A DNA stretch of 64,000 bases from a virus, in the IMG/VR virus record IMGVR_UViG_3300046170_000347, positions 5,400-69,399 of that record; one strand, given 5' to 3'. Below are positions 1,755 through 31,771 of this stretch, piece by piece. The first letter of the stretch is position 1, and each line of letters starts with the position of its first letter. The notes under the pieces were generated by a model. It made no database searches and had not been told where the DNA came from. It saw only the letters and a list, made by a program, of their open reading frames with translations. Position numbers and translations under genes: made by a program.

Positions 1755-1757
1755 TAA

Positions 1758-2575: not shown

Positions 2576-2579
2576 CTAA

Positions 2580-2612
2580 TTACAAATAAAATAAAATATC
2601 CTTTGGATAATA
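2580..2612 (+). promoter_or_regulatory. Class I early promoter motif, copy 4
   Basis: TTACAAATAAAATA...TTGGATAATA. Confidence 0.75.
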
Positions 2613-2626
2613 ATATAAAATAAACT

Positions 2627-2776: not shown

Positions 2777-2780
2777 TACT

Positions 2781-3529: not shown

Positions 3530-3562
3530 TTACAAACAAAATACAAACACTATTGGATAATA
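3530..3562 (+). promoter_or_regulatory. Class I early promoter motif, copy 5
   Basis: TTACAAACAAAATA...TTGGATAATA. Confidence 0.75.
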
Positions 3563-3576
3563 TAATAAACAAAACT

Positions 3577-3768
3577 ATGCAACAAATAAAATTCTTACCC
3601 AACAACCATATTCGCCTCGGCAATAAAACTTACAAAGGTTACCATGTCGGCGAGCTACCACCTAAATTTGCTTTTATCTACAATGAAGATCAAGACAAAG
3701 ACGGTGTAAGCGAATGGTTTAACTACAAAGGTTTAACTTACATTGAAAAAGTTGACTTACCATGGTAG
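3577..3768 (+). CDS. Early hypothetical protein
   Basis: ATG downstream of promoter motif; coupled to next ORF. Confidence 0.65.
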   Translation: MQQIKFLPNNHIRLGNKTYKGYHVGELPPKFAFIYNEDQDKDGVSEWFNYKGLTYIEKVDLPW

Positions 3769-4013
3769 TAACTAACATGAGACAACTGCTAATCTATGCA
3801 GAGCAGCAAAAGAAACTACGTGCAAGCGAGCATAGGCGTAAGCACGCACATGACGGCAAGTGTAGTGGACTTAGCGATGCTGAGTACAATCGAGTTAAGC
3901 ATCCTCAGAAGTCTACCTTTACGAAGGCTAGAAAGTTCACTCACAACCGTATGTGGCGAGATCACACAAAGAAATTTACAGTAGAACAACTAAAACAAAT
4001 AAAAACCCTATGA
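3762..4013 (+). CDS. Basic hypothetical protein
   Basis: Overlapping start/stop with neighbours. Confidence 0.6.
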   Translation: MVVTNMRQLLIYAEQQKKLRASEHRRKHAHDGKCSGLSDAEYNRVKHPQKSTFTKARKFTHNRMWRDHTKKFTVEQLKQIKTL

Positions 4014-4453
4014 CAAATTGGCAAAAAGAGCAGTTTATGCTCGAAGAACAGTTCGTAAAGCGTATGCTTATCGACTACAATATCAGAGAAGTAACAACAC
4101 AGCGGCAGGCTAAAAACAGTACTCGCGAGTTTGAGTTTCCTGTGCCTGCATATACTAAACAAAGACTTAAGTGGCATGCTAAACGAAGTAATATAAAAGA
4201 TCTACCAAGATTACGCATTGCTTGTTTCAAATCAGGCTATGTACGTAAGCAAAACGGTGCAGACAGAGCTTATCAACTAAATCCTACATACAATCAAGAA
4301 CAAAGATATGTGTGGATGCGACAAGGTGAGTTCACTGAAAGCTCAGGGTTATATACATCAAAGTTTACTACTAAAGCTCGTGCGCTTATAACATCACCTC
4401 TTGTACGACTAAACTTTATGTTAAACTATTACCTTAAAAACTACGCAAAATGA
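4010..4453 (+). CDS. Hypothetical protein
   Basis: ATGA overlap with upstream stop; long ORF in operon. Confidence 0.7.
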   Translation: MTNWQKEQFMLEEQFVKRMLIDYNIREVTTQRQAKNSTREFEFPVPAYTKQRLKWHAKRSNIKDLPRLRIACFKSGYVRKQNGADRAYQLNPTYNQEQRYVWMRQGEFTESSGLYTSKFTTKARALITSPLVRLNFMLNYYLKNYAK

Positions 4454-4641
4454 AAGAATATATAGATAACGAACTAAAAAAACTAGATCGAGCAATTGTA
4501 GCTACGCCTACAGAAGAGTATCTTGATGACTTTGCTAAATGTAATCAAGGAAGTAATGACTTTTTACTAATGCAAATGGCTAAGAACTATGGCTATCAAC
4601 TAGCTTTACTTAACATTAAAAACAAATTAAATGGTAACTGA
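4450..4641 (+). CDS. Hypothetical protein
   Basis: Translationally coupled ORF. Confidence 0.65.
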   Translation: MKEYIDNELKKLDRAIVATPTEEYLDDFAKCNQGSNDFLLMQMAKNYGYQLALLNIKNKLNGN

Positions 4642-4840
4642 AAAAGCTACATACTATGTAGAAACATGGATAAATGGTAATAAAAACCACGTAATAAAAA
4701 CACTTGCTTACTTGCTTACTAGTGATTCAATAGCAAATAGAATAGATTATACTAATATATTATCAAAGTTTATTGCTTATGATAGTGACTTAGCTCTAAC
4801 AGTGATTGATAGAGTTTTAAATAAAATATATGGAAAATGA
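4631..4840 (+). CDS. Hypothetical protein
   Basis: Translationally coupled ORF. Confidence 0.6.
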   Translation: MVTEKATYYVETWINGNKNHVIKTLAYLLTSDSIANRIDYTNILSKFIAYDSDLALTVIDRVLNKIYGK

Positions 4841-5031
4841 GTAAAATGAAAGAAATAGATTCGATAGCACAAGGTGTAGCGGATCACTGCTGGGAAATAC
4901 TATATGACAGTGTTGCTTGGCAAATAGCAGACGAACCTGTAAACGGTGATGATTACAATGATCTTCACGCTGATGTAATGGATCGAGCAATCGAATACCT
5001 TTACAAACAAAATACAATCGCTAATGGATAA
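4837..5031 (+). CDS. Acidic hypothetical protein
   Basis: ATGA overlap; C-terminus encoded by promoter motif copy 6. Confidence 0.65.
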   Translation: MSKMKEIDSIAQGVADHCWEILYDSVAWQIADEPVNGDDYNDLHADVMDRAIEYLYKQNTIANG

Positions 5032-5033
5032 TA
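5001..5033 (+). promoter_or_regulatory. Class I early promoter motif, copy 6 (upstream of Zn-finger gene and RNA cluster)
   Basis: TTACAAACAAAATA...ATGGATAATA. Confidence 0.75.
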
Positions 5034-5048
5034 TAATAAAATAAAAAT

Positions 5049-5237
5049 ATGTATTGTAAATGTGGACAAACAGTGCATCCGGTGCGCTTAGAATTAGGAT
5101 ATAAAACATGCGTTTCATGTAGTACAACTCAAACGTACTCTTATGTACCTATCATAGAGCATAAAACAGGTAATACAATACAAATCGTCAGCCAAGAAGT
5201 AAGCGCATCAGTGCACAGAGCTTGGCGGCGTAAATGA
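5049..5237 (+). CDS. DksA/TraR-like C4 zinc-finger protein
   Basis: CKCG...RLELG..TCVSC pattern resembles the DksA/TraR Zn finger. Confidence 0.6.
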   Translation: MYCKCGQTVHPVRLELGYKTCVSCSTTQTYSYVPIIEHKTGNTIQIVSQEVSASVHRAWRRK

Positions 5238-5348
5238 TGGAAGCACCGTAATGGTCCATCAAATAGCTAGACGAGTAGCTTAATTAGGTTAAGACAGTAT
5301 CTCAGATTTATCTGTTTAAGTATCTTAACACATAAGTGAATAGCTAGC
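5235..5348 (+). ncRNA. Structured intergenic RNA candidate
   Basis: Helices TGATGGA/TCCATCA, GTTAAGA/TCTTAAC, CAGAT/ATCTG; no convincing ORF. Confidence 0.35.
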
Positions 5349-5350
5349 GG

Positions 5351-5445
5351 GAACTAGGTCAGGTAAGACGCGCACCGGTCAAAAGACAGTGGTGCACCGC
5401 GCTTAGGCTACCGACGGGTATGAGGTTCGAATCCTCACTAGTTAC
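5351..5445 (+). ncRNA. Anticodon-less tRNA-like RNA
   Basis: Acceptor AACTAG/CTAGTT, perfect T-arm TGAGG-TTCGAAT-CCTCA, 12-nt GTCAGGTAAGAC segment, long arm capped GTC-AAAA-GAC, extra TACC-GACG-GGTA hairpin. Confidence 0.7.
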
Positions 5446-5598
5446 AAATCGTACAGTATCACGGATTGCAGAGTAATTAACTGCATGCACGGTGGAAGTC
5501 CGACTGCGGATGTGATGAGTAATAATGCAAGTGTATGAGGTTCTTAGCCCTCCACTAAAAATACTCAAAGAGAATTTGCATAGATAACTGTACTTTTT

Positions 5599-5701
5599 GG
5601 GCGTGAAATGGTTAGACTATTGGAAGTTAGCGCGTAAATCTGCAAGACAGTAGCCCACTAACTCATATATAGTAACGCAGGTTCGACTCCTGCCACGTCC
5701 A
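5599..5701 (+). ncRNA. Minimal tmRNA-like RNA (tRNA-like domain with 27-nt loop)
   Basis: Acceptor GGGCGTG/CACGTCC with G3.U70 and A73; stemless loop AAATGGTTAGAC; helices ACTAT/ATAGT and AGTTAG/CTAACT; T-arm GCAGG-TTCGACT-CCTGC. Confidence 0.8.
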
Positions 5702-5706
5702 CTAAT

Positions 5707-5790
5707 AGAGAGATGGCAGATATGCAGTTCATGGCTTGTCCAACACAAACCCTAACGGGAAATCGAAGTGCTTCGTGGACACATCTCTCT
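5707..5790 (+). ncRNA. Structured RNA candidate (multi-branch hairpin)
   Basis: AGAGAGATG/CATCTCTCT, TGTCCA/TGGACA, CCC-TAAC-GGG, CGAA-GTGC-TTCG. Confidence 0.5.
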
Positions 5791-5803
5791 TATAATATTA
5801 CAT

Positions 5804-5876
5804 CGCGCTGTAGAGCAGTGGCCAGCTCGCAAGGCTCATAACCTTGAGGTCGTCGGTTCGAATCCGGCCAGCGCAA
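5804..5876 (+). tRNA. Initiator tRNA-fMet (CAT); CCA not encoded
   Basis: Full cloverleaf, C1:A72 mismatch, anticodon arm CAAGG-CTCATAA-CCTTG, GGTTCGAATCC T-arm. Confidence 0.93.
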
Positions 5877-5897
5877 CTAATTTTAAAACAAGAATAA

Positions 5898-6095
5898 ATG
5901 CCAAATATGAGTTATTGTCGGTTTGAAAACACCGTCACAGACATGAGAGATTGCATAAATGCGATCGAAGATCGAGAAACAGATGAGCTTAGCAACTATG
6001 AAGTTAATGCTCTTTCAAATTTTTTAGATCTTGCGAGAGAAATTACTAACCTCGAATATGAAATCGAAGAAATACTAGGTGAATATGACAGCTAA
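5898..6095 (+). CDS. Phage hypothetical protein (NMSYCRFENT type)
   Basis: ORF with N-terminal motif familiar from many phages; acidic. Confidence 0.75.
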   Translation: MPNMSYCRFENTVTDMRDCINAIEDRETDELSNYEVNALSNFLDLAREITNLEYEIEEILGEYDS

Positions 6096-6357
6096 AGTTA
6101 GACAAATGAAGAGTGTTAGATCAGGTAATCCTGCAGCTAATCAATTTATTATATACACTGACGAAGGTAATTACTTTCAAAGCTATGACAGCGTTATTGC
6201 TTTTAGAGGTGAGGACAATAAAATTACACTAGACGAGTACTATTGGGATTACTCTCGTACTACAAGTAAATACCGCAACCAGTTTTTAGGTGAAAGTATT
6301 GTAGATACAAGAGCTAAGATAGAATCAGGTGAGTATAAGCTAGCAGATCTTAATTAA
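6085..6357 (+). CDS. Phage hypothetical protein (FQSYDSVIA ... YSRTTSKYRNQF type)
   Basis: Coupled ORF; motif familiar from phage early regions. Confidence 0.75.
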   Translation: MTAKVRQMKSVRSGNPAANQFIIYTDEGNYFQSYDSVIAFRGEDNKITLDEYYWDYSRTTSKYRNQFLGESIVDTRAKIESGEYKLADLN

Positions 6358-6554
6358 TGAAAGATTTTGTTAAATTTACTGTCGTATGGATCAGTCAAAA
6401 CCTTGCAATACCTTTCTGGGTTGTAGGTCATATACACTTATCTATACATACCTTTCATGATCTTTATGAAGGGTTAGCTAGCTTATGTCTACATTTAATT
6501 GTAGGTGTAGGCTTCTATATAGATTACAAACAAAATAAAAACACTAATGGATAA
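6357..6554 (+). CDS. Small membrane protein
   Basis: Two hydrophobic segments; TAATG overlap. Confidence 0.65.
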   Translation: MKDFVKFTVVWISQNLAIPFWVVGHIHLSIHTFHDLYEGLASLCLHLIVGVGFYIDYKQNKNTNG

Positions 6555-6556
6555 TA
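6524..6556 (+). promoter_or_regulatory. Class I early promoter motif, copy 7
   Basis: TTACAAACAAAATA...ATGGATAATA, inside upstream CDS. Confidence 0.75.
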
Positions 6557-6561
6557 ATAAT

Positions 6562-6792
6562 ATGAAAAATACAAAACGATTAAACTTATGGAAACGGCTA
6601 AAGCCCGAGTACAAGAAAAACATAAAAGAAGCAAACCACAAGTATTCTTGGAAAATGGACAGTATTAAAAAAGAGCTTAAAAACGAATACTGGTTTACAG
6701 AAGTAAAATACGGTATTGCTTTTGATGTAATGACACCTAACAAGCTAACGTTTCTTGGCGATGCTTTTAATTCTAGTTATGCAGATGAATAA
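6562..6792 (+). CDS. Basic hypothetical protein
   Basis: ORF downstream of motif. Confidence 0.6.
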   Translation: MKNTKRLNLWKRLKPEYKKNIKEANHKYSWKMDSIKKELKNEYWFTEVKYGIAFDVMTPNKLTFLGDAFNSSYADE

Positions 6793-8984: not shown

Positions 8985-9607
8985 ATGAAAGAAATATAAA
9001 ATGGCTAAACGATAGGCGCATTATCTACAGGAGAGATCCGTGGAGTGATGTGCCTACCGTTGAAACGCCTTATTATAAGTTCTATGAAAAAGGCACGCAT
9101 CAATGTTATCACTTGTTTAATAGCACGGCTAAAATAACTACATACAGATCATTGAAGTGGCATTTTTATGTTTTGTATTTTCTTAATCAAGACATGCATA
9201 AAGATGAAAACGCTTTGCCGTTTTTTATGTTATTCAAGTTTATAGCTAACAAAGATAATGGTTTTGTAACATTTTTTATAAGTGATAAAAAACTAGAAGA
9301 AATAATCAGAGATGTTTTAACTAACGGTGGGGAACCACCTGTAAACAAAAAACGTAAGATTATATTTAAACCTTGGACGCCACTAACACCTGAAGATAAA
9401 ATGCGTATTGTCGGCGAGCTTATAGGTAGATCAAGACGTATTGATGAAGAAGCCATTTATCAATGCATGTTAGATCTAAACGAGTATGGCAAAAAAATTA
9501 CCGTAGGACGCGTAGCAGGCTTGCTTAACTGTTCAACGAGAACTATACATAGAAATATGTGTAAAGAGTTAAACAAAGAAAAACAATACTTAAACAATCA
9601 ATTATGA
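8978..9607 (+). CDS. DNA-binding protein with C-terminal HTH
   Basis: ITVGRVAGLLNCSTRTIHRNM helix-turn-helix pattern. Confidence 0.75.
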   Translation: MSHERNIKWLNDRRIIYRRDPWSDVPTVETPYYKFYEKGTHQCYHLFNSTAKITTYRSLKWHFYVLYFLNQDMHKDENALPFFMLFKFIANKDNGFVTFFISDKKLEEIIRDVLTNGGEPPVNKKRKIIFKPWTPLTPEDKMRIVGELIGRSRRIDEEAIYQCMLDLNEYGKKITVGRVAGLLNCSTRTIHRNMCKELNKEKQYLNNQL

Positions 9608-10362
9608 AAAAGTATAATGTACAGAATTATATAAGATATAAAAACGATCTTAAAAAGTCTATGCCACCTGATAAGTTCTATGACTACTATACGCGTGATG
9701 AACTAATAGTAAAGTTCTTACCGCTTGTAGAAAACTTAGCAAGAAAATTTTCAACAACACAACAAGCATCAGGCGTACTTAGCATTAATGATCTTATACA
9801 GATAGGATCTGAAGGACTAATTAAAGCCGTAGATAAACTTGACTGGGCAGAAAGACTAGCTGAAACAGAAGACATAGAAAAAACATTAAAGTCGTTCTTT
9901 GCAAAACGAATAAAAGGAATCATTAGACGCCGCATAGACATGGCTAGGGGCGGCATACGTATACCAGAGCATAAGCTAAATGAAATACGTAAAAACCCTA
10001 AAGACAAAAAAATGGTTGAGCTATTTTTTAATAGTATGTTTTTAAGCATAGATGCGCAACCGACTAACAACGACGAAGAAAACATGATCTATCAAATAGC
10101 AGATAAATCAGAGCCGTATAACATACAGATACTTAATATTTATTTAAAAGGTTTAATGCAAAAACACCTTAACAAAAACGAATACGAAGTGCTAAGATTG
10201 AGCTACGGTCTTGACTGTGACAAACACTCTGCAAACGAAATAGCAGACAAAATTAAGATCAAAGGACCAAGCGCTTATGTGCGTGTTTCAGAGCTTAAAA
10301 AACAAGCCGTAGAAAAACTAATTGACAGTGTTGATCACTCGCAAGTGCTTGACTTTCTGTAA
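9604..10362 (+). CDS. Phage sigma-70 family RNA polymerase sigma factor
   Basis: Region 2 (FLPLVENLARKF...DLIQIGSEGLIKAVDK) and region 4 (LNKNEYEVLRLSYGL...EIADKI...VSELKKQAVEKL). Confidence 0.92.
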   Translation: MKKYNVQNYIRYKNDLKKSMPPDKFYDYYTRDELIVKFLPLVENLARKFSTTQQASGVLSINDLIQIGSEGLIKAVDKLDWAERLAETEDIEKTLKSFFAKRIKGIIRRRIDMARGGIRIPEHKLNEIRKNPKDKKMVELFFNSMFLSIDAQPTNNDEENMIYQIADKSEPYNIQILNIYLKGLMQKHLNKNEYEVLRLSYGLDCDKHSANEIADKIKIKGPSAYVRVSELKKQAVEKLIDSVDHSQVLDFL

Positions 10363-22576: not shown

Positions 22577-25500
22577 TTAATTATTCATTAGTTCTAAAAT
22601 TTTTTCAACTCTATTTTTTTCATATCTAAGATCTCTTATTTCTTTTTTAGTAAGTCCAAACTTAGTTAACGTTTTTACTTGATCTGGTTTGTTTTCTGCC
22701 TTAATAGAATCAAACTGTCTTCTTAGTTTTTGTTCAGCGGTCTCTGTTGCGGCTTTAGGTTTAAGTGGAGGTTTAGGTTGAGGTGTAGGTTTTGTTTCAG
22801 TTGTGGGTTTTGTTTTTGTTTCCTCAGACTCTTCTGTTGGGCGCATTGGTATCCCGCTTTGTAGTTCAATTATTTTTTTAACTCTAGCATCTTCTTTACC
22901 TAACGCTTTAATTTGTTTCTTAGTAAGACCTAAATCTAAAAGCATATCTATTTGCTCTTGAGTTTTAGTATCTTTCTTCATTGTATCAAATTTCTTTTGC
23001 TCTATCTCTGCGGGCGTTGGATCTGCTACAGCATCCCAACCTCCATAATAAGGAAGACCAATATCATATGTTCCATAACCTGCTGCTAAAGATATTTTTT
23101 GCCACTCAGCTGTTTGCTCGCTTAGTATACCTCTTATGTTATTAGTTTTCTTAACAACACGATCTAAAGGTATATTAGTAAAAGCTGTAAATATCTGAGC
23201 ACCTGCTAAGTAAGCTGGGTTGTCTAGGCTAAAACCTTTTTCTTTCATTTCCTTAGCGTTCCAGCTAAAACTTTTTAAACCACCTACAATTTTTCTATAC
23301 TTAGAACTAATAGCCGGTGAAAAGCTTAGCGCTTCAATTGCGGCTTTTTCATACTCAGGTCTTTTCTTACCAGACTCTTCAATTATTTTTAGTACTGTAT
23401 TTTTAGCAGCAACCATAGCGTTACCTGCAATACCTAAACCTTTTAACTGAGAGTCAATCATGCCGTTAGCAACTCTAGTTATTTTCTTTTCGTTTCTAGC
23501 TTTTATCTTAGGATCTTTTTCGTCTTCATCGCTGCCAAAACCAATAGCAAATAAGGCTTGCTGTAGTGAATTAAATATTAAATTTTGTATAGCACCATAA
23601 TAAGCTATTTTAGATACATTTGTTTTCCAATCACCTCTGCCGTTTATAAGATCTTGAGCGGCTCTTTTTTGTATTCTAACATACTGCATCGGCGTGTTAG
23701 CCCAGTTAAGTATAACACGACCAGCACCAGACGCTTGCTGCATACTAATCTTAGAAGCGTCACTAGACTGTTGGCTTTCTTCTGCAACATCTTTAAAGTC
23801 TGCAAAAGCTTGTTGTTCAGCAAGTTCTGTGCTCATGCCTTCTTTGACATACTTTTTAATTCTGTTTCTATAAAAAGTAGAACCACCAGAAGCTATGGCA
23901 AAACTATCCGCGTATCTAGTAAGAACAAAACCTTTACTAAGTAAATAAGATATAGCTGCGTTTACTTTATTCTTAGAATCTTTTACAGCATCTGCTATTT
24001 CAGATTCACTTACATTTATTTTAAGTCCATTACGACGTTGCACTAAGTAATCAGAATTCATTAGTTTCATAAAGTCTCCCCAAAACTGTTTCTGATTTGC
24101 AAACGCTTTGCCTGCGGCTATAGGATTATTATCACCCCAATTTAAAAAGTTTACAGCAGATATAGTTTGAAGCAGTGCAGATCTAGTATTTAAAAACATT
24201 ACAGCACCAACAGAGTTGTTAGTCCAGTCTAATACCTTATTGGTTATTTCACTACCACCAATTGGTCTGTTACTGCCAGACTTCATTCTGCGAAGAGTAT
24301 CTTCTAAAGCTTTACGCCAGCGAGTACCATATGCAGCCTCCATTTTATTTAAGTTTTCAGGTGAAAATATAATATCTACATTTTCTCTAAAAGTCTTTTG
24401 ATATTCTGCTCTGTTTACCTTGTTTATACCACCTATAATATCTGTAGTTAAATTACCAGCTAGCCAGTCTTTACCAGGCTCTGGATACATTTTACCTTTT
24501 TGACTTACTATAAGTTGATCGGCAAACGTTTGAAGCTCAGCGCTATCAGTAACAAACTTATTTAATTTCGCTGCGTCTGCTTTTGATAGACCAGGTATTG
24601 ACATACCTTGTTTGGTCCACATATAAGTTCTAAGAGCATGCTGATATGTAAACTTACCTACACCAGTTTCTTTTTTAAGTGTAGTGGGTATAGTCTTATA
24701 CATAGACTTTAGCGCCATGAAATCATTGGCAGCAGATATCTTAGCTTGTATAGCTGAGTCTTCTGCTCTATTGTAAGGATCAATAAGATTGTTTTTAAGG
24801 AATTCAAAATGCGCCTCACCTTGCTTGCCTTTTCCTATCATTTTATACAATAAACCCTTAAAGTCTTCAGCTGATGAGGCCATTGTAAGCCAATCAAACC
24901 TACCTTTGTTTTGACCTAATGTTTTAGCTTTAGCAGCAGAGAAAGTTTTATAAGCTTCAATACCACTACTAGCTTCTATCATTTCGTTAGTTATAGTATT
25001 AAAAGTTTTAGCATTACTAAATTTAGCTTGTTGCACCTTGCCTTTAACATCAGCTTGATCTAATATTTCTTTGACAGCTTCTACATTTTTAAGCGCATCA
25101 TCAGCAAAATAAAAATCATTATAACCTTCAGATACTTTATCCATGATCCAGCGGCCTTTGGCACTAGCCTTGCCATCTGCTAAGCCAGTTATATTTTTTA
25201 AAGGTATATCAATACCTAGAGCTTTCATAAACTCTTTTATAGGCCCAGCAGCATCCTGAGGTCTAGCTGTTAATATAAATAAATCTTCTGTGCCTCTTTT
25301 TTCTGCTATTCTTTTCATCACATCAAACAAAGGTCCTTTTTTTCCATCAACTACTTTGCTAAAATCACTAAAATCAAACTTAGCACCTTCTTGTTCTAGC
25401 TGAGCTGATTTTTCTGCAAATTCTGCGGCATCTATTTTAAAAGTTTTGCCACTTGGAAAATCTTTTAAAACTCTTGCTTGCTGCTCTTCGTTTAAATTTT

Positions 25501-28500
25501 CAAAGTTTTGTTTAGAACTAGGCTTGTTTTCAAATTCTTTTTTAAATATTCTTCTAGCGGCAATATCAAGCATTTCTATATCAATTGGTCGACCTGGCAC
25601 TTCAACTAAAATTTTACTTTTCGTAATAGCCGCGGTGTAATCAAAATCAAATACTCTAATTTTCCTTTCTTTCTTAGGCACAGGCTTACCGTTCTCAATA
25701 TTTAAAGATCTTGATAATTCTAACGCTGCATCAGCTCCTCTTAAATTCTCAACAACAGCTTCATTTGTAGCAGCTTTATCAAATCTAAAAGAACTAGAAG
25801 CTAGGTCATTCATTTTTTCTGCACTCTTAGCTTTTGGATCTACAACTCTTTGTAGCTCTTGATAGTCTTTTTTAGCTCTTTCTCTTGTTATTTCTCCTGT
25901 TAAAACTTTTGTTATTAATTCATTAACAACTTTAGAGTTTTCTAATATCTCAAAAGGTGTTGTTACTTTTTTAGATTTACCTACAAAAAACTCACCGATG
26001 GATTTTTGTGTTTCAGTAAACGCATAAGCAAAAGGATCAATAGTATTTTCAATAGTATACCTAATAAGAGACGCTGTGCCTTGTGGTAAAAAATCTAACT
26101 TACCTTCTCTTACGGCTTTAAGAACTTTATCATAGTATTCAGGAGGTAAATTTTTATCAAGAAAAACAGATAAAGCTTTATCGTCGTTATATCTTAAAGC
26201 TCCTTGACCATATATAGCTTTTATATCTTTAAACTCTTCTTTGACAGTTCCTCTTTTGGCTGCTTCTAAAAGCATTAATCCTATTTTATTAACAGGAGCC
26301 ATATGCTCTTCTTTTACTTTAACAGAAACTGCCTTGCCAGTTAAAGGATTTATAGGATAAAAAACAAGTGCTGCTCCAAATCTATTTAAATGACCTTGAC
26401 CTTTTGCGCTGTCTCTTAAAAACTGTTCAAATATTCTATACTTGCCTTTACCTTCTTTTGTTTTTAGAAACTCTTGTACTTTTAAATAAAAATTTTCTAT
26501 TTCATCTAATCTAAACTTATTGTTTCTAAGAATACTACCATCTCTTAAACCTTTATTGACTTTACCAGCTAAAAACATTTCAGTGGCGGCATATGTAAAT
26601 CTAGTTGCTTTATTATCTCTATTGCTTTTTCCAAACAAGCTTTCAAAATTTGGAATATCTCTAAAAGTTAAATCTCTTCCACCTGTCATGCTTTGCTCTA
26701 CATATCTTTTACCTTCAGGGTAGAATTCAAAAAATGATTTAAAATCTTTTACAGCCGCTTTGTACTCAGGAGATTTTGTATCTATAATAGTATAACCTTT
26801 TAATGCACCTGTTTTTTTAGACTTTTCAAAAATTTTATCTCTAACAAAAGATGGTTGAGTATATTTTAACTCTTCGCGCTCTTTACCTGTTGTAATCTTA
26901 GGCACTTTTTTATCTTCACTAAACTTAGCGCCTAGTTTTGCTCTTTGACCTGCATCACCTTTTAAGTATTCTAAAGCATTGTTTTTAAAATAAGAGGCTA
27001 ATACTACTTTTAGTGGTTGAGATCTTCTATATAAAGGCACTGGCCTACCGTTTTCAAGTGGATTAAACTCTATAGACTTACCGTCATAACCTTCTACTGT
27101 TATATTTTTACCTGAAATTATATCTCTAAGTGTTTTTAAAGATCCAGGTTTTAAATCGCCTTTGTCATTTAATAAAGCTTTACCTACTTTTGTTTGCTTA
27201 AATCCAGGTGTATTAATTCTAGAGTGTATAGCTTGTAGATTGTCTAATATAAATTGCTTAGCTCTAGTCGCTGCAGCTTTTTCACCAGCAGGAAAATTCC
27301 TATTAGGTATCATTAAAGCTTTTATACCAGCCTCAGACTCAATACCGAGCATCTTAGCATAAAACTCTGCTAATGATCTAGGTGTTTTTAAGTCTTTATA
27401 TTTATTAATATCTACATCTTTAAAGCTGTCTAGTACTTGAGTTTTTAAAGCCTCTTGTATTGCTTGCTCAGGTGTCTGGCCTTCTTTTACTTCAATGCCT
27501 AGGTTTTCTACAAACTCAGGTTTCATTTTAACTTCAGAGGGCAATCGCTTAGTTGCAGTTACTTTTTCTTCTTCTTTAATTGTTTCCTCAACAGCGACAT
27601 CTTTTAGACCAACTAAATCATCTACAGAAGTATCAAACTCTTTACCTAAATTTCTATCAGCTATTTCTATATATCTTTTAAATCCAGTTTTAGTAGAAAA
27701 ACTATTATTTAAAAACAAAGATAATTCTTTTACTTTTTCACCCTTTTCAACTTTAGCAGCATAGTCATTAATAACGTCTAGCATACCTCTTTTGCCTGTC
27801 ATTATTTCGTCGACAAGTAATTCCTCATCATATCGTGGTCGGTTTTTAAATCTTCTTGCCAAAGATGTAGCTGTAGGTCTTAACAATTCTAGTATTTCAA
27901 AACTTGCGTCTTTACCTTTTTCAGCAAATAATCTATTAACGGTGTTTGAATCTTTTTTAGCTAAACTAAACCTTCCTGATGGAGTAGCTAATTCTAAGTT
28001 TTCTGCAGTTGTTTCAACTTCAACTTTTTTAGGTGTTTCTTTTATTTCAACCCTGCCAAGATCTTGGGCTTTGAGCATTTCAAAAATACCTTTACCTGTT
28101 TCAGGATTTACTTCTATATTGGGTAAGAAGCTTTTAAACGCAGGTACTAAACCAGCTAAGCCTTCACCGAAACTTCTGCTAAATTCTATTTCACCTCTTT
28201 TAATAAGCTCAGCTAGTACAGTTATGTTTTCTTCGTACCATTTTTCTTTAGATTGACCTACGTCATATCTAGAGGCTAACTCTTCGTCTAATACTTGTTT
28301 TTGTCTTGGTGTAAGTTTACCTAATACTCCATCGATCATTTCTATACCTTCAGGTGTTACATTGCCTTCAGCGTCTTTAAAAGAATCTTTTAATATTGAG
28401 TGAGGTATTTCATGAGTAACTGGTGTAAAGTTTCTTTGTTGTAAAGCAAACTCCCTATTAATAACTTTATTACCGTCTTTATCTGTAAAAGCTATTTTAC

Positions 28501-31500
28501 CTTTGACATCTTCTTTTTTAAATCCAGACTCATCATAGCGTTTTTGAAACTCTTCTGGTGTTCTAGCTTCAACTACTTTACCTTCAGAAGGATCTGCTTG
28601 CTTCACATCTTTCTCATAAGCCGTAATAGCAGCACCTTGTATTTCTGACTGTATGTTATTATACAGTTCACCGCCTTTTATATACTTACTTAGCTCTTGC
28701 TCGGCGCTTTTTATAGCTTCTTTGTTTTCAAGAAGTTCAGATTCTGATAAATTAGTTTTATCTAAATTTTTTAATCTATAAATTCTTTCGTTAAGCTCTT
28801 GTTTTTTTAATAAAAACTCTCTAGCGTTTTGTCTAGCAGTTGTTCCTTTTGGTGATACAAACTCTACAGGATTCAAGGGTTGTAGACCATACGGTGTTAA
28901 CATAAAAGACTTACCATTTAGTTGAGCTTCTATTAAAGATTCGTTTAATATTAAATTTTGTAAATAAGAATCATTGACAGAATTTTTTTGTATACCTAAT
29001 CTTTTATAAAGCATGCCCACGCCATCTAGCCCATAGTAAGACAATACTTCTCCATCTCTATCGTTTAGTTTTTCTCCGTTTTTTATTTTTTGAGATACTA
29101 AATAAAACTCAGATTCTCTTGGAGCATTGCCTGCATTTTTCTCTGCTTGAATTAGTTCATAAGCAGCATTGACAGCTATTTGAGTATCAACTACTCTGTA
29201 ATCTTCTTTTAACCTTTTAAATTCAGCGTCAGCCTCTTGTTTAGTTATCTTACCTTCTCTTTTTCTTTTTAGTAGATCGTTTACTTTATTTTCAAAAGCG
29301 TCATTAAGTTCTGCCTGCGCATTTTCTTGATCAACTTCAAATCCTTCTTTTTCTAATAATCCACCTTCTTTTACTTTCACGCCTAATCTTTGAGCAGATT
29401 CTTTAGCTTCTAAATCTAATCTACCGCTAGTTTTAGCATTTATAACATCGCTTTTAAATTCTTTGCCAATGCTGCGCATGTTAGGAACAGACTTAGTTAA
29501 AGTCCCAGCTATAATCATTTTTATAGTTTCTACAGCTTGAGTATGCAATGAAACAGTTAAATTACCTTGCTCGTCAAATAAACCTCCGGCAGCTACAGCG
29601 CTTCCAAACTGATATGTTGTTGCACCACCAAATGCACTACCAACAGATCTTGAAACTCTTCTATAAGTGTTAGGAGCGTATTTTGTTAAAGCATTTACAA
29701 CTGGAGAGAAGATTCTACCTATTTTAGATTTACCTAAAAATTTAACAAAAGGATCATACATAGCATGACCTACGGCTAATGAAGATCCAAAACCTGCTGA
29801 ACTAGGTAAAGATTCTAAGTCAAAATCTCCTGTTCTATATTGGCCAACTATGCTACCACCAGTAAAAGTTACGGCTTGACCAAGAACTGAGTTTACTGTT
29901 TTAAAAGCAGGTAGCGCGTATGGTATTTTTGAAAATCTTTTACTTTGAGTAGCTAGTTTATTTGCCCATTTTTGTGTTTTACCTACAATATTACCACTAC
30001 CTCTAGTGAATAAATATACATCACCCATCCAAGCTAATAGATCTGGTGCAGTAGCACCAATTTCTTGACCTGTGTTTTCTGGTGATATAAAACCACCTCC
30101 CGGTATTTGTATAGCTAAAGAGTTATCTAGAGCTTCTTTGCTTGGAGTAAAACCATTAGTTTGCATCCAATTTAAATAATTATCTTTAACTTGTCTATCT
30201 GTAGGAGCCGCGTCACCGCCTAATAAATTAACCGTAGCAGCGTAAAATTCATCAGTAAAACCTCCTTGTTCTGTTGTTAAAGGATCTCTATCTAGCTGAA
30301 AAGCTCTGTTTACTATTTTATAATTTTCTACAGCGTCATTAAAAGCTTTTATAAGAGGATGACCATCTTCGTCGTTTATAGCTCTAACGTCTAATTTTTC
30401 TAAATAACCAGGTAGTCTACCATTTAAAGCTATTTCCTCTACTAAGCTAGATATATCTTTAGTCCATTCAAATCCTTTTTGACCTTTATAACCTCCATTT
30501 TTACTAAAAAAACTAGGATCATTTGCGGCGCCACTGTTTGCTTTATCCCAGTTATATATTTCTTGAGCTAATCCAACAATTTTAAAATAATCATTATTTA
30601 GTTTTTGCTTTAAAACATCTTTTTCTGTTGTATCCGCTAATTTTTTAGCTTTTTGAAAAAGTTCTATTTCAGATTCTTGTACTTTATCGAGGTCTATGTT
30701 TTTTATCTCATCTCCAAAAAATAATCTTTCGCCATAATTTTCTTTAGAAGCCTCTTTGTCTTGCTCTTCCGGGCTTAATTCTAAAAACTTTAATTCATTT
30801 TTAGTAAGAAACTGCTTGCCATCTTTTAAAACATCGTCAATACTTACGTCATTAAATTGTAAATTAGCTTGAGATCCTAAGTAATCAGTTCTATAATTTT
30901 GCACACTAGGAATACTTATAGCCTTAGATCTATCGTTTCTTTCTTTTTCAGCTTCTCTAGTACTTTTAATTGTAGGAAAATAACTACTTCCTACAGAGTT
31001 ACCGTATTCATCTAAAGACGCTTGTATAGCAAGTTCATTGTTTGTTTCCCATACTTGATTGCCTAGTTGATTGTTTAATTCTACAGGATCATATTTTTGA
31101 ATTAAAACCTCATCTAAAACAGTAGTAGTTCCTTCCATTGGCATAGAACTATAATTTATTATCTCAGCGTTAGGATTTGATTTAACATAATCAGCAACCG
31201 TTGAAACGTTTTCAAAGCCAGGTTGATTACTGTCAATCATTTGTTGAATTTGATTAAAAGTAAATTCTTTTGAAGATCCTTCTTTAAACCTTGTTCCTTT
31301 TGGAGGTTGAATTAAAACTCTAGTATCATATTTAATTTCTCCACTTTTTATTGCTTTAATGCCTTCTTCCTGCGATTGTTTTTTAGATTCAAAATCTTTT
31401 TTAAGTTTATTGTATTCTGCCTTTTTATTTTCGTAATCTTCTAAAGATAAACCGCCTCTAAACAAGTCATCAGATATGTTTCTACCTATGTCATCTAAGC

Positions 31501-31771
31501 TTTGGTTATAAGGATTTGTAAATGGCAATACTGATCCGCCAATTCCAAATTCGCCAATCCCGCTTAAAGCTGCTTGCACGTTTGGTGTTGCCGTTGCTAC
31601 AGTCGTGCTCTCCTCTGTAACAACAGGCGGCTTTCCCTCTTCTACTACTTCAACAGTTTCAGACTTGGGCGCGTGTGTTTGTTTCCACTCATTAGCTCTT
31701 GCTATTTTCTCATCGCGAGTTAAACTTTGTGGAAGTTCAGCTATGTATTCTTCTAATGTAATATGACTCAT
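22577..31771 (-). CDS. Giant 3064-aa putative internal/ejected polyvalent protein (zincin, sigma-region-2-like, HAD domains)
   Basis: Follows tail genes; HEIPH ~aa1120; HAD motifs FDFDYT/ILTAR/K/FADD ~aa2040-2235; duplicated C-terminal GLTKK repeat. Confidence 0.8.
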   Translation of the reverse strand: MSHITLEEYIAELPQSLTRDEKIARANEWKQTHAPKSETVEVVEEGKPPVVTEESTTVATATPNVQAALSGIGEFGIGGSVLPFTNPYNQSLDDIGRNISDDLFRGGLSLEDYENKKAEYNKLKKDFESKKQSQEEGIKAIKSGEIKYDTRVLIQPPKGTRFKEGSSKEFTFNQIQQMIDSNQPGFENVSTVADYVKSNPNAEIINYSSMPMEGTTTVLDEVLIQKYDPVELNNQLGNQVWETNNELAIQASLDEYGNSVGSSYFPTIKSTREAEKERNDRSKAISIPSVQNYRTDYLGSQANLQFNDVSIDDVLKDGKQFLTKNELKFLELSPEEQDKEASKENYGERLFFGDEIKNIDLDKVQESEIELFQKAKKLADTTEKDVLKQKLNNDYFKIVGLAQEIYNWDKANSGAANDPSFFSKNGGYKGQKGFEWTKDISSLVEEIALNGRLPGYLEKLDVRAINDEDGHPLIKAFNDAVENYKIVNRAFQLDRDPLTTEQGGFTDEFYAATVNLLGGDAAPTDRQVKDNYLNWMQTNGFTPSKEALDNSLAIQIPGGGFISPENTGQEIGATAPDLLAWMGDVYLFTRGSGNIVGKTQKWANKLATQSKRFSKIPYALPAFKTVNSVLGQAVTFTGGSIVGQYRTGDFDLESLPSSAGFGSSLAVGHAMYDPFVKFLGKSKIGRIFSPVVNALTKYAPNTYRRVSRSVGSAFGGATTYQFGSAVAAGGLFDEQGNLTVSLHTQAVETIKMIIAGTLTKSVPNMRSIGKEFKSDVINAKTSGRLDLEAKESAQRLGVKVKEGGLLEKEGFEVDQENAQAELNDAFENKVNDLLKRKREGKITKQEADAEFKRLKEDYRVVDTQIAVNAAYELIQAEKNAGNAPRESEFYLVSQKIKNGEKLNDRDGEVLSYYGLDGVGMLYKRLGIQKNSVNDSYLQNLILNESLIEAQLNGKSFMLTPYGLQPLNPVEFVSPKGTTARQNAREFLLKKQELNERIYRLKNLDKTNLSESELLENKEAIKSAEQELSKYIKGGELYNNIQSEIQGAAITAYEKDVKQADPSEGKVVEARTPEEFQKRYDESGFKKEDVKGKIAFTDKDGNKVINREFALQQRNFTPVTHEIPHSILKDSFKDAEGNVTPEGIEMIDGVLGKLTPRQKQVLDEELASRYDVGQSKEKWYEENITVLAELIKRGEIEFSRSFGEGLAGLVPAFKSFLPNIEVNPETGKGIFEMLKAQDLGRVEIKETPKKVEVETTAENLELATPSGRFSLAKKDSNTVNRLFAEKGKDASFEILELLRPTATSLARRFKNRPRYDEELLVDEIMTGKRGMLDVINDYAAKVEKGEKVKELSLFLNNSFSTKTGFKRYIEIADRNLGKEFDTSVDDLVGLKDVAVEETIKEEEKVTATKRLPSEVKMKPEFVENLGIEVKEGQTPEQAIQEALKTQVLDSFKDVDINKYKDLKTPRSLAEFYAKMLGIESEAGIKALMIPNRNFPAGEKAAATRAKQFILDNLQAIHSRINTPGFKQTKVGKALLNDKGDLKPGSLKTLRDIISGKNITVEGYDGKSIEFNPLENGRPVPLYRRSQPLKVVLASYFKNNALEYLKGDAGQRAKLGAKFSEDKKVPKITTGKEREELKYTQPSFVRDKIFEKSKKTGALKGYTIIDTKSPEYKAAVKDFKSFFEFYPEGKRYVEQSMTGGRDLTFRDIPNFESLFGKSNRDNKATRFTYAATEMFLAGKVNKGLRDGSILRNNKFRLDEIENFYLKVQEFLKTKEGKGKYRIFEQFLRDSAKGQGHLNRFGAALVFYPINPLTGKAVSVKVKEEHMAPVNKIGLMLLEAAKRGTVKEEFKDIKAIYGQGALRYNDDKALSVFLDKNLPPEYYDKVLKAVREGKLDFLPQGTASLIRYTIENTIDPFAYAFTETQKSIGEFFVGKSKKVTTPFEILENSKVVNELITKVLTGEITRERAKKDYQELQRVVDPKAKSAEKMNDLASSSFRFDKAATNEAVVENLRGADAALELSRSLNIENGKPVPKKERKIRVFDFDYTAAITKSKILVEVPGRPIDIEMLDIAARRIFKKEFENKPSSKQNFENLNEEQQARVLKDFPSGKTFKIDAAEFAEKSAQLEQEGAKFDFSDFSKVVDGKKGPLFDVMKRIAEKRGTEDLFILTARPQDAAGPIKEFMKALGIDIPLKNITGLADGKASAKGRWIMDKVSEGYNDFYFADDALKNVEAVKEILDQADVKGKVQQAKFSNAKTFNTITNEMIEASSGIEAYKTFSAAKAKTLGQNKGRFDWLTMASSAEDFKGLLYKMIGKGKQGEAHFEFLKNNLIDPYNRAEDSAIQAKISAANDFMALKSMYKTIPTTLKKETGVGKFTYQHALRTYMWTKQGMSIPGLSKADAAKLNKFVTDSAELQTFADQLIVSQKGKMYPEPGKDWLAGNLTTDIIGGINKVNRAEYQKTFRENVDIIFSPENLNKMEAAYGTRWRKALEDTLRRMKSGSNRPIGGSEITNKVLDWTNNSVGAVMFLNTRSALLQTISAVNFLNWGDNNPIAAGKAFANQKQFWGDFMKLMNSDYLVQRRNGLKINVSESEIADAVKDSKNKVNAAISYLLSKGFVLTRYADSFAIASGGSTFYRNRIKKYVKEGMSTELAEQQAFADFKDVAEESQQSSDASKISMQQASGAGRVILNWANTPMQYVRIQKRAAQDLINGRGDWKTNVSKIAYYGAIQNLIFNSLQQALFAIGFGSDEDEKDPKIKARNEKKITRVANGMIDSQLKGLGIAGNAMVAAKNTVLKIIEESGKKRPEYEKAAIEALSFSPAISSKYRKIVGGLKSFSWNAKEMKEKGFSLDNPAYLAGAQIFTAFTNIPLDRVVKKTNNIRGILSEQTAEWQKISLAAGYGTYDIGLPYYGGWDAVADPTPAEIEQKKFDTMKKDTKTQEQIDMLLDLGLTKKQIKALGKEDARVKKIIELQSGIPMRPTEESEETKTKPTTETKPTPQPKPPLKPKAATETAEQKLRRQFDSIKAENKPDQVKTLTKFGLTKKEIRDLRYEKNRVEKILELMNN

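What the first reader, a model, noticed from the sequence alone, without database searches (positions are those of the whole stretch)
26930..27960. Sigma-70 region-2-like domain inside the giant virion protein: an injected sigma factor?
Seen: LRPTATSLARRF-x10-LVDEIMTGKRGMLDVINDY...KELSLFL aligns by eye with this phage's own sigma, FLPLVENLARKF-x11-INDLIQIGSEGLIKAVDKL...KTLKSFF (P, LAR-F, D, I, GxxG kept). It starts just after the GRFS junction and heads a ~350-aa segment, a sigma-sized piece. Established: crAss-like and N4 phages inject a whole RNA polymerase for early genes; no RNAP catalytic motif is evident here. Inference: this phage instead injects a sigma factor that redirects host core RNAP to the seven non-host class I promoters, which then express the second sigma. 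I know of no described example. A region 4 is not obvious by eye.
Basis: partly seen in the sequence, partly recalled or inferred. Interest (0 to 1): 0.82.

Follow-up and report, generated by a model that had tools for sequence, protein, structure and literature searches.

The report
Sigma-like domain in giant phage protein
A giant protein encoded among the particle genes of an abundant marine phage holds a small, strongly conserved domain that resembles the part of bacterial sigma factors that grips RNA polymerase and opens promoters, which suggests, but does not show, that the phage carries its own transcription starter into the cell.

Summary
The quoted strings are at aa 1297-1354 of a 3064-aa ORF (22577-31771, minus strand). 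The resemblance to sigma-70 region 2 exceeds chance. Profile-profile comparison gives P about 1e-4, and 0 of 250 shuffles reach the real score. It is the best of 42 windows along the protein. The highest-probability fold matches are sigma factors in both PDB and BFVD. A language-model search returns Sigma70_r2 clusters, and sub-threshold NCBIfam hits are mostly sigma families.

It is not a Pfam-level member: 0 of 29 relatives hit Sigma70_r2, and all Foldseek E-values are non-significant. No region 3 or 4 was found. The domain is the most conserved island in the middle of a large family of giant proteins (304 clusters at 50% identity). It sits directly after a conserved HExxH...E zincin motif, so the protein looks like a phage polyvalent protein. 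The nearest relatives carry a different, also sigma-2-like, module in the same slot. A co-fold with Flavobacterium beta-prime clamp helices gave weak support only.

The seven early promoters are real, are not of the host type as I recall it, and are conserved in distant relatives. Packaging into the virion, injection, core binding and promoter use are all untested. Verdict: sigma-2 likeness probable (about 0.8), injected sigma possible (about 0.2).

The parts
22577..31771 (-). Giant ORF, 3064 aa (P0001). It lies in the structural-gene block downstream of terminase, portal and virion structural proteins.
   Evidence: Pfam and PHROGs on the whole protein gave 0 families. There are 134 giant homologues at E<=0.001.
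27587..27970 (-). Sigma-70 region-2-like helical domain, aa 1268-1395. Residues invariant or nearly so are S1275, G1286, D1321, I1323, G1326, G1329, Y1337, N1355, R1366 and F1379.
   Evidence: Alignment A1. AF2 model pLDDT 75.9 with five helices. hhalign. Foldseek PDB and BFVD. ESM Atlas. NCBIfam. Conservation profile.
27758..27901 (-). Core of the match, aa 1291-1338. It aligns with sigma regions 2.1-2.2; D1321/I1323/G1326/G1329/Y1337 pair with E. coli RpoD D403/I405/G408/G411/F419.
   Evidence: hhalign alignments. RpoD numbering was checked on locus L003.
27965..27976 (-). G-R-F-S junction motif, aa 1266-1269, at the N-terminal border of the domain.
26915..26932 (-). G-A-K-F-S-E junction motif, aa 1614-1619. 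K-F-S-like in 30 of 37 aligned relatives. It closes the roughly 349-aa piece.
26924..27499 (-). Second, mostly helical domain of the piece, aa 1425-1616. Fold unassigned; no sigma-3 or sigma-4 likeness.
   Evidence: Alignment A3. AF2 pLDDT 75.4. Foldseek PDB: 0 sigma entries in the rows listed, all prob <=0.14. hhalign P>=0.13. hmmsearch against PDB gave one hit at E=0.15.
28082..28534 (-). Conserved zincin-like metallopeptidase candidate, aa about 1080-1230. H-E-x-x-H at aa 1120-1124 (nt 28400-28414) and invariant E1181.
   Evidence: Invariant columns E1121, H1124, E1181 in at least 35 of 37 sequences. Alignment view. Pfam found nothing there. Motif definition from passages of PMC5512222.
9604..10362 (+). 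The phage's own free-standing sigma factor, 252 aa.
   Evidence: Homologues in 4 of 5 related complete genomes.
1540..6587 (+). Seven class I early promoters: upstream box TTACAAAC(A/T)AAATA, about 10-11 nt, then GGATAATA..., with an ATG a few to about 40 nt downstream. Copies at 1540, 1758, 2259, 2580, 3530, 5001 and 6524.
   Evidence: The same bipartite motif is clustered in relatives G003, G004 and G005.

Best explanation
Window 27587-27970 (aa 1268-1395 of the 3064-aa ORF) encodes a highly diverged sigma-70-family region-2 (sigma-2) domain. It is built into a phage-type polyvalent protein, directly after a zincin-like HExxH peptidase motif.

Shown:
- The sigma-2 likeness.
- The strong conservation of the domain.
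- The neighbouring peptidase motif and the junction motifs.
- The structural-module position of the gene.
- The lack of any recognisable phage RNA polymerase.
- The conserved early promoters, which are not of the host type as I recall it.

Inferred:
- The giant protein is packaged and ejected with the DNA.
- The piece aa 1268-1616 is freed, or exposed, by the peptidase.
- Its region-2.2-like helix (the D-E-I-x-T-G-x-R-G motif, the best conserved part) docks on the beta-prime clamp helices of the host core RNA polymerase.

Most likely outcome: it works as a minimal, sigma-2-only initiation factor in the manner of T4 gp55. It would open the GGATAAT -10-like element of the class I early promoters, so that early genes, among them the phage's complete sigma, are transcribed before any phage protein is made.

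My odds:
- True sigma-2 homologue: about 0.8.
- Engages host RNA polymerase after delivery: about 0.4 (this is the confidence given for this explanation).
- Acts as the initiation factor for class I promoters: about 0.2.
For: (1) Profile-profile comparison. The domain family against RpoD, RpoS, RpoH, FliA and the phage sigma scores 33.7-34.5, P about 1e-4, probability 53%, with 59 columns covering regions 2.1-2.3. Against the six E. coli sigmas alone P is 6e-4 to 1e-3. 0 of 250 composition-preserving shuffles reach the real score (max 23.8).

(2) Unbiased scan of the whole protein. Of 42 windows, 1261-1400 is the best (P=7.6e-4) and the overlapping 1191-1330 is second (P=0.017).

(3) Fold. The AF2 model has pLDDT 75.9. 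In Foldseek PDB, 8 of the 47 rows listed are sigma-factor entries (ranks 2, 3, 4, 14, 17, 21, 26, 28). The best is the SigE N-terminal domain, prob 0.80, TM 0.67 on the target, rmsd 3.2 A. In BFVD, rank 1 is the Tenacibaculum phage PTm1 sigma factor (prob 0.84), and 5 of 50 rows are named sigma factors. The neighbouring domain, used as a control, gives 0 sigma rows.

(4) ESM Atlas. 27 of 30 named hits carry PF04542; top score 0.95.

(5) NCBIfam on 29 members. 5 of the 9 weakly hit families are sigma factors (SigK, SigI, FliA); best E is 0.0068.

(6) Conservation. The domain is the most conserved island in the middle of the protein. It occurs in 304 representative clusters, and those listed are giant proteins or their fragments. 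The most conserved motif coincides with region 2.2, the core-binding helix (that region 2.2 binds core is recalled).

(7) Slot behaviour. Relatives 86-90% identical in the flanks carry an unrelated sequence in the slot. That sequence also looks sigma-2-like: hhalign P=0.014, and the top named Atlas hits are PF04542 clusters at 0.90.

(8) Co-fold with residues 200-360 of RPOC_FLAJ1: weak support.
- Score 0.39 (runs 0.38, 0.39, 0.48); best control 0.01.
- The mark was reached by 58 of 80 solved complexes and 2 of 110 mismatched pairs.
- At 0.60 or under it was reached by only 7 of those 80 solved complexes and by both mismatches that passed.
- The runs agree in at least 29% of contacts; partner pLDDT is at least 64.
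- Sigma/beta-prime complexes are solved, so the pass may reflect likeness only.

(9) Context.
- HExxH...E motif upstream.
- Junction motifs.
- Virion-module neighbours.
- No RNA polymerase found.
- Seven early promoters, with the bipartite motif conserved in relatives whose domain is only 35-36% identical.
- The free sigma co-occurs in 4 of 5 related genomes.
- Polyvalent proteins are proposed to be processed by such peptidases and to jump-start transcription (PMC5512222, abstract and passages).
Against: - HMMER sees nothing. 0 of 29 members hit Pfam Sigma70_r2 at E<=10. No sigma is among the 6 PDB sequences at E<=10. The Pfam model finds only the free sigma in the genome at E<=10.
- All Foldseek E-values are non-significant (>=0.46).
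- The best hhalign figure came after I tried five templates, two settings and a second master sequence. The first runs gave only P=0.015-0.022, and ECF sigmas alone gave P=0.69.
- No region 3 or 4 was found. Yet the promoters have a conserved upstream box that a sigma-2 domain alone could not read.
- W433 and W434 of RpoD are not kept; the window has N and S there. Only the Y430 position stays aromatic.
- Packaging and ejection are not shown. No PHROG or Pfam family marks the protein.
- No isolated phage in the collection has the domain, so no proteome exists.
- The host is inferred only from terminase relatives.
- The co-fold pass is in the weak range.
- The phage has a complete sigma of its own.
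- The slot tolerates replacement by a sequence that the domain's HMM does not recognise.
Confidence: 0.4

Rival explanations
1. Sigma-2 decoy or inhibitor. The delivered domain occupies the beta-prime clamp helices and blocks the host primary sigma. This shuts off host transcription at the moment of entry. It recognises no promoter itself.
For: - The sigma-2 likeness is the same as for the best explanation.
- The best conserved part is the region-2.2-like helix.
- The -10-melting tryptophans are not kept.
- There is no region 4.
- Weak co-fold pass: score 0.39, best control 0.01. The mark was reached by 58 of 80 solved complexes and 2 of 110 mismatched pairs, but at 0.60 or under by only 7 of those 80 solved and by both mismatches that passed. 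Contacts agree in at least 29%; partner pLDDT is at least 64.
- Sigma-like domains are known to serve as mimics in PhyR (search listing only; the mechanism is recalled).
Against: A few injected copies could hardly titrate thousands of polymerase molecules. The region after 2.2 (aa 1350-1380) is as conserved as 2.2 itself, which a pure clamp-helix plug would not need. This reading also leaves the non-host early promoters unexplained.
Confidence: 0.2
2. A sigma-2-derived fold put to another use. Examples are holding single-stranded or end DNA of the phage genome during ejection, or a structural role inside the capsid. There would be no contact with RNA polymerase.
For: - The domain is always embedded in giant proteins and is never seen free. 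The 56 small hits look like fragments on short contigs or of split genes.
- Polyvalent proteins carry many nucleic-acid-binding domains (PMC5512222 abstract).
- Key sigma residues are only partly kept.
Against: The best conserved motif coincides with the core-binding helix of sigma. The co-fold with beta-prime was far above its controls, though weak: score 0.39, best control 0.01. The mark was reached by 58 of 80 solved complexes and 2 of 110 mismatched pairs, but at 0.60 or under by only 7 of those 80 solved and by both mismatches that passed. Contacts agree in at least 29%; partner pLDDT is at least 64.
Confidence: 0.15
3. Chance resemblance. The domain is an ordinary helical bundle, and its heptad-like pattern and G-x-x-G turn mimic region 2.
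For: No HMMER-level hit. Foldseek E-values are >=0.46. Small all-helical domains give many spurious matches. The Atlas tool states that a third of shuffled proteins also get ten hits of one family.
Against: Five different kinds of test point to the same family and the same register. 0 of 250 shuffles come near the real score. The domain is the best of 42 windows. The neighbouring helical domain gives no sigma hit at all.
Confidence: 0.15
4. A late transcription factor of the producing cell. The giant protein is made late, its peptidase frees the sigma-2 piece, and that piece drives late promoters as T4 gp55 does. Packaging would be irrelevant.
For: The gene lies in the late structural block. 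The architecture is sigma-2-only.
Against: The phage already has a complete sigma. Embedding a late factor in a 3064-aa protein of the virion module has no known precedent that I found. The class I motif occurs only in the early region.
Confidence: 0.05

Closest known systems
T4 gp55, the minimal late sigma factor (properties recalled, not tested here)
   Same: A sigma made essentially of a region-2-like domain. It binds the beta-prime clamp helices and reads only a -10-like element. Here too there is a sigma-2-like domain without region 4, and the promoters have an A/T-rich -10-like box.
   Different: gp55 is a free protein of about 185 aa, is made during infection, and needs gp33 and the sliding clamp. 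This domain is embedded in a 3064-aa protein of the virion gene block.
Phage-type polyvalent proteins, including the N4 virion RNA polymerase (Iyer et al. 2017, PMC5512222; abstract and passages read)
   Same: A giant multidomain protein encoded among the late genes, with a zincin-like HExxH...E peptidase hub. Relatives carry kinase domains PF06414/PF13671. The proposed role is to act at entry, including to jump-start transcription.
   Different: Those proteins jump-start transcription with a polymerase. This one has no polymerase motif and instead has a sigma-2-like module. The word 'sigma' occurs 0 times in that paper's main text. Its supplementary domain lists could not be seen.
Free-standing phage sigma factors, including this phage's own 252-aa sigma
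   Same: Same region 2.1-2.2 register. BLASTP E=0.038. hhalign against the phage sigma alone gives P=0.007. The top BFVD hits are phage sigma factors.
   Different: Those have regions 2 and 4 and are early or middle gene products. The domain here falls below every curated threshold and lacks region 4.
PhyR-type sigma-like domains (search listing only; mechanism recalled)
   Same: A sigma-like domain fused to another module.
   Different: PhyR mimics an ECF sigma in order to trap an anti-sigma factor. The domain here resembles group 1-3 sigmas and not ECF sigmas (P=0.69 against ECF), and it sits in a phage giant protein.

Membership tests
Sigma-70 family sigma factor | Region 2 recognised by curated models (Pfam PF04542 or NCBIfam cut-offs) | tested here: not met
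   0 of 29 members hit PF04542 at E<=10. The Pfam model finds only the free sigma in the genome at E<=10. NCBIfam sigma hits have best E=0.0068 and are far below their cut-offs.
Sigma-70 family sigma factor | Region-2 (sigma-2) likeness at profile-profile and fold level | tested here: met
   hhalign P about 1e-4, with 0 of 250 shuffles reaching the score. Best of 42 windows. Sigma entries lead the high-probability Foldseek hits in PDB and BFVD, though E>=0.46. Atlas: 27 of 30 named hits carry PF04542.
Sigma-70 family sigma factor | Region 4 helix-turn-helix (-35 reading, beta-flap binding) | tested here: not met
   No window of the giant protein matches region 4. For aa 1425-1625, Foldseek gives 0 sigma rows and hhalign P>=0.13.
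Sigma-70 family sigma factor | Binding to the beta-prime clamp helices of core RNA polymerase | tested here: inconclusive
   Co-fold with RPOC_FLAJ1 200-360 gave weak support. Score 0.39, best control 0.01. The mark was reached by 58 of 80 solved complexes and 2 of 110 mismatched pairs. At 0.60 or under it was reached by only 7 of those 80 solved and by both mismatches that passed. Contacts agree in at least 29%; partner pLDDT at least 64. The pass may be from memory of solved complexes.
Sigma-70 family sigma factor | Aromatic and polar residues of regions 2.3-2.4 that melt and read the -10 element (RpoD Y430, W433, W434; roles recalled) | tested here: inconclusive
   The Y430 position is F or Y throughout. 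The W433/W434 positions are N-S in the window and K-F in the other subfamily. One subfamily, including the window, has a 5-residue insertion after it.
Sigma-70 family sigma factor | Free, dissociable subunit | tested here: not met
   The domain is embedded at aa 1268-1395 of a 3064-aa ORF. The small hits look like fragments. Release by the upstream peptidase motif is an inference.
Phage-type polyvalent protein (Iyer et al. 2017) | Very large multidomain protein encoded among the late or virion genes | tested here: met
   3064 aa, downstream of terminase, portal and virion structural proteins. A syntenic 3859-aa gene is present in MW202828.1.
Phage-type polyvalent protein (Iyer et al. 2017) | Zincin-like peptidase: HExxH helix plus a downstream glutamate | tested here: met
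   E1121, H1124 and E1181 are invariant in at least 35 of 37 sequences; H1120 is kept in most. This is at motif level only: Pfam finds nothing and the fold was not modelled.
Phage-type polyvalent protein (Iyer et al. 2017) | Packaged in the virion and delivered with the DNA | not testable with these tools
   No cultured relative carries the domain. This rests on gene position only.
Virion RNA polymerase (N4 gp50 type or crAss-like two-barrel type) | Polymerase catalytic domain or motif | tested here: not met
   PF00623 absent, with its control ringing in 14 of 14 genomes. PF00940 absent, but its control rang nowhere. No DxDxD motif in the giant ORF or the 1700-aa ORF.
T4 gp55-type minimal sigma | Sequence homology to gp55 | not tested
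The likeness is in architecture only.

The most novel reading that the evidence does not exclude
This abundant group of marine Flavobacteriia-type podophages has no polymerase of its own. It delivers a sigma-2-only initiation factor inside a self-processing giant virion protein. On entry the freed module captures host core RNA polymerase and opens the conserved early promoters (TTACAAAC...GGATAAT), which are not of the host type. This switches on the phage's complete sigma. It would be the first injected sigma factor. The module is exchangeable between near-identical phages.
Probability: 0.2. Interest if true: 0.9.

Novelty: new variant of a known kind. Interest (0 to 1): 0.68.

Why it matters
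Phages that start infection from promoters their host cannot read are known to solve the problem by injecting a whole RNA polymerase (N4, crAss-like phages; recalled). This phage has such promoters but no detectable polymerase.

A sigma-2 module carried in a virion polyvalent protein would be a third, cheaper solution: bring only the specificity subunit and borrow the host's catalytic core. I found no such case in print. 'Sigma' occurs 0 times in the main text of the polyvalent-protein survey. The phrases 'virion-packaged sigma', 'injected sigma factor', 'virion sigma factor' and 'co-injected sigma' occur in 0 papers.

The family is large (304 clusters at 50% identity). The phage group is very abundant in marine metagenomes: at least 8000 hits to its sigma, the scoring cap, and all 120 listed are 88% identical or more. 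So the answer would bear on early transcription in a major group of uncultured ocean phages.

Even the modest reading is useful: it adds a domain type to polyvalent proteins and gives a named, testable function to the best conserved part of an otherwise unannotated 3064-aa protein.

Tried and rejected
- Pfam and PHROGs on the whole protein: 0 families. Pfam on six segments: only noise.
- hmmsearch of the domain profile against PDB sequences: no sigma.
- Search for small free-standing proteins that would bridge the domain to true sigmas: 56 hits. The 24 I aligned read as fragments of giant proteins. One was labelled a sigma subunit by its source, but Pfam does not confirm it.
- Profile search of 1.84 billion representatives: the 150 listed are all strong family members, so weaker hits could not be seen.
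- Homologues of the phage's own sigma, wanted as a diverse sigma alignment: the 120 listed were all 88% identical or more, so useless for that purpose. I used six E. coli K-12 sigma genes instead.
- Region 3 or 4 in aa 1425-1625: not found.
- Polymerase motifs: none.
- Nearest isolated phages: no DNA or protein match to the domain or to the C-terminal module.
- Co-variation of module type with early-promoter motif. The only contigs with the alternative module (1 viral, 7 metagenomic) end 10 kb or less downstream of the domain and miss the early region, so the test could not be made.
- Frame slips were corrected.
- An Atlas call on a protein over the length limit failed and was redone on a shorter relative.
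The alignment for aa 1425-1625 was then made from locus references.
Full report
**What is there**

The finding lies inside one ORF, window 22577..31771 on the minus strand, 3064 aa. GRFS is at aa 1266-1269. The phage's own sigma is at 9604..10362 on the plus strand, 252 aa. It is a weak but recognisable Pfam Sigma70_r2/r4 protein: E=1.3e-4 (22.2 bits, cut-off 24) and E=0.038. The window is bases 5400-69399 of a 69,399-base virus record that CheckV rates 100% complete.

**The family**

A search with aa 1230-1650 found 134 proteins at E<=0.001 (120 listed). All are 1.7-3.4 thousand residues long and come from metagenomes. Several carry the kinase families PF06414/PF13671.

A full-length alignment of 37 of them has two conserved parts: a large C-terminal module (aa about 2130-2900) and, in the middle, an island at aa 1290-1380.

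A profile of it (alignment A1, 29 sequences) finds 304 representative clusters at E<=0.001 among 1.84 billion proteins. The 150 listed are giant proteins or their fragments. The 24 of the 56 small hits that I aligned read as fragments, not free proteins.

**Is it sigma-like? Negative results first**

- Pfam and PHROGs find nothing in the whole protein.
- 0 of 29 members hit Sigma70_r2 even at E<=10.
- The domain profile finds no sigma among PDB sequences at E<=10.
- The Pfam model finds only the free sigma in the genome at E<=10.
- All Foldseek E-values are 0.46 or worse.

**Is it sigma-like? Positive results**

Profile-profile comparison used an alignment of E. coli RpoD, RpoS, RpoH and FliA (loci) plus the phage sigma. 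My first runs gave only P=0.015-0.022. I then took as master a family member without the subfamily-specific insertion. That gave score 33.7, P=1.3e-4, probability 53%, over 59 columns covering regions 2.1 to 2.3. Against the six E. coli sigmas alone P was 1e-3. Against ECF sigmas alone P was 0.69. I tried five templates and two settings, so these figures need a correction of about tenfold.

Two controls answer that concern:
- An unbiased scan of 42 overlapping windows along the whole protein puts window 1261-1400 first (P=7.6e-4) and its overlapping neighbour second (P=0.017). One further window reached P=0.021 against the E. coli-only template, over 10 columns; all others were P>=0.078.
- 150 column shuffles (max 21.7), 100 block shuffles (max 23.8) and the reversed alignment (13.2) never approach the real score of 34.5.

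Four further lines agree:
- **Fold, PDB.** The AF2 model (pLDDT 75.9, five helices) finds sigma-factor entries in 8 of 47 listed rows. The SigE N-terminal domain is at rank 2 (prob 0.80, TM 0.67 on the target). For three of the eight rows (9a50_A, 9a4r_A, 8dy9_F) I infer from names and lengths that the chain is the sigma.
- **Fold, BFVD.** Rank 1 is the sigma factor of Tenacibaculum phage PTm1 (prob 0.84), and 5 of 50 rows are named sigma factors.
- **ESM Atlas.** 27 of 30 named hits are PF04542 clusters, top score 0.95.
- **NCBIfam.** The weak hits of the 29 members fall on SigK, SigI and FliA models in 5 of 9 families.

The neighbouring helical domain (aa 1425-1625, alignment A3, model pLDDT 75.4) serves as a control. 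It gives no sigma row in Foldseek and P>=0.13 in hhalign.

I conclude that the domain is probably (about 0.8) a diverged sigma-2 domain. It is closer to group 1-3 sigmas than to ECF sigmas.

**Anatomy**

In the hhalign register, D1321, I1323, G1326, G1329 and Y1337 pair with RpoD D403, I405, G408, G411 and F419. So the family's best conserved motif (D-E-I-x-T-G-x-R-G) overlies region 2.2, which from recalled knowledge is the clamp-helix-binding helix. L1350 and F1353 pair with F427 and Y430. The W433/W434 positions are not tryptophans.

There is no region 3 or 4.

Directly upstream, E1121, H1124 and E1181 are invariant, and H1120 is kept in most sequences. That is the HExxH...E signature of zincin peptidases, although Pfam does not see it.

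The piece is closed by G-A-K-F-S at aa 1614-1618, kept in 30 of 37 relatives. A similar motif is at aa 2250 in 22 of 37.

**Context**

The neighbours are terminase, portal and virion structural proteins. The plus-strand block holds ligase, primase, helicase, MazG and ribonucleotide reductase.

No polymerase family and no DxDxD motif were found. The PF00940 control rang nowhere, so that search is uninformative.

Terminase relatives are Flavobacterium (68 records), Cellulophaga (15), Tenacibaculum (2), Maribacter (1) and one uncultured podovirus (1), out of 87 records. The uncultured podovirus, MW202828.1, has a syntenic 3859-aa gene. So the host is probably a member of the Flavobacteriia.

None of the 50,697 phage records matches the domain or the C-terminal module.

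**Promoters**

Seven plus-strand copies of TTACAAAC(A/T)AAATA - about 10-11 nt - GGATAATA... lie at 1540-6587, each shortly upstream of an ATG. The same bipartite motif is clustered in complete relatives G003, G004 and G005, whose domain is only 35-36% identical.

From my recollection of Bacteroidota promoters (TTTG near -33, TAnnTTTG near -7), this motif is not of the host type. Its downstream box resembles a classical -10 hexamer.

The free sigma co-occurs in 4 of 5 related genomes; in one of the four it is split by two stop codons.

**Module swap**

Relatives that are 86-90% identical in the flanking sequence (P0005-P0007, P0009-P0012) have an unrelated sequence in the slot, which the domain's HMM does not hit. 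That sequence also looks sigma-2-like: hhalign P=0.014 in the region 2.1-2.2 register, and its top named Atlas hits are PF04542 clusters at 0.90. This evidence is weak, because the alignment holds only four near-identical sequences.

**Binding**

A co-fold of A1 with residues 200-360 of Flavobacterium johnsoniae beta-prime gave weak support.
- Score 0.39 (runs 0.38, 0.39, 0.48); best control 0.01.
- The mark was reached by 58 of 80 solved complexes and 2 of 110 mismatched pairs.
- At 0.60 or under it was reached by only 7 of those 80 solved complexes and by both mismatches that passed.
- Contacts agree in at least 29%; partner pLDDT is at least 64.
- Sigma/beta-prime complexes are solved, so the pass may show likeness only.

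**Literature**

- The polyvalent-protein survey (PMC5512222; abstract and found passages read) describes giant injected proteins with a zincin hub that is proposed to process them and to jump-start transcription. 'Sigma' occurs 0 times in its main text. Its supplements could not be seen.
- The jumbo-phage overview (PMC7824862, passages) mentions injected polymerases and phage sigmas, but no injected sigma.
- The four phrases for an injected or virion sigma occur in 0 papers.
- Of the papers found, I looked into two (passages). Neither reports one.

**Reading**

The domain is best explained as a sigma-2 module of a polyvalent virion protein that engages host RNA polymerase at entry. Whether it initiates at the class I promoters (about 0.2), merely blocks the host sigma (about 0.2), or has lost contact with polymerase altogether cannot be decided without experiments.

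Noticed in passing
window 28400-28414 (aa 1120-1124) and aa 1181; domain about 28082-28534, minus strand: Conserved HExxH plus a downstream glutamate, a zincin-like peptidase signature, directly upstream of the sigma-like domain. A few subfamilies have the first histidine replaced.
   Followed up: partly
window aa 1266-1269, 1614-1618, 2248-2252 and about 1996 of the giant ORF (nt 27965-27976, 26915-26932, 25013-25030): A recurring G/A-x-K/R-F-S motif at domain borders. It is kept in 30 of 37 relatives at aa 1616 and in 22 of 37 at aa 2250. These may be processing sites.
   Followed up: partly
window 25094-25657, minus strand (aa 2039-2226): By eye, a HAD-phosphatase-like set of motifs (D-F-D-Y-T, then T-A-R-P, then A-D-D). 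Pfam does not confirm it. Some relatives carry zeta-toxin-like/AAA_33 kinase domains instead of, or beside, it.
   Followed up: no
window 26294-26314, minus strand (aa 1820-1826): An invariant E-H pair (E1822, H1823) inside a moderately conserved domain of unknown function.
   Followed up: no
window 1-2250 and 61753-64000: The two ends of the window repeat each other at a spacing of about 61,752 bases, with 77-100% identity in different pieces. The genome unit is therefore nearer 61.8 kb than 69.4 kb. The promoter copies at 63291 and 63509 duplicate those at 1540 and 1758. The partial divergence suggests that strain variants were merged in assembly.
   Followed up: partly
L097 (G005 58300-63000), L098 (G004 55900-60600), L099 and L100 (G003): The bipartite early-promoter motif is conserved and clustered in distant relatives. 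An ATG often lies only 6-20 nt after the GGATAATA box, which suggests leaderless or very short-leader early mRNAs.
   Followed up: partly
G005:C1:65743-66500: The homologue of the free sigma in this 100%-complete relative is split, with two TAA stops in its first part.
   Followed up: no
L088 (MW202828.1, record 741-12320): The nearest deposited relative by terminase (63% identity) has a syntenic 3859-aa gene annotated 'reticulocyte binding/rhoptry protein'. It shows no tblastn match to this protein's sigma-like or C-terminal parts.
   Followed up: no
window 58238-59791 (minus strand), 16515-19539 (plus strand), 5804-5877 (plus strand): A phage-encoded Cpn60/GroEL-type chaperonin, both ribonucleotide reductase subunits, and a tRNA-Met.
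   Followed up: no
The free sigma has at least 8000 database hits (the scoring cap). All 120 listed are 88% identical or more, so this phage group is very abundant in sampled marine metagenomes.
   Followed up: no
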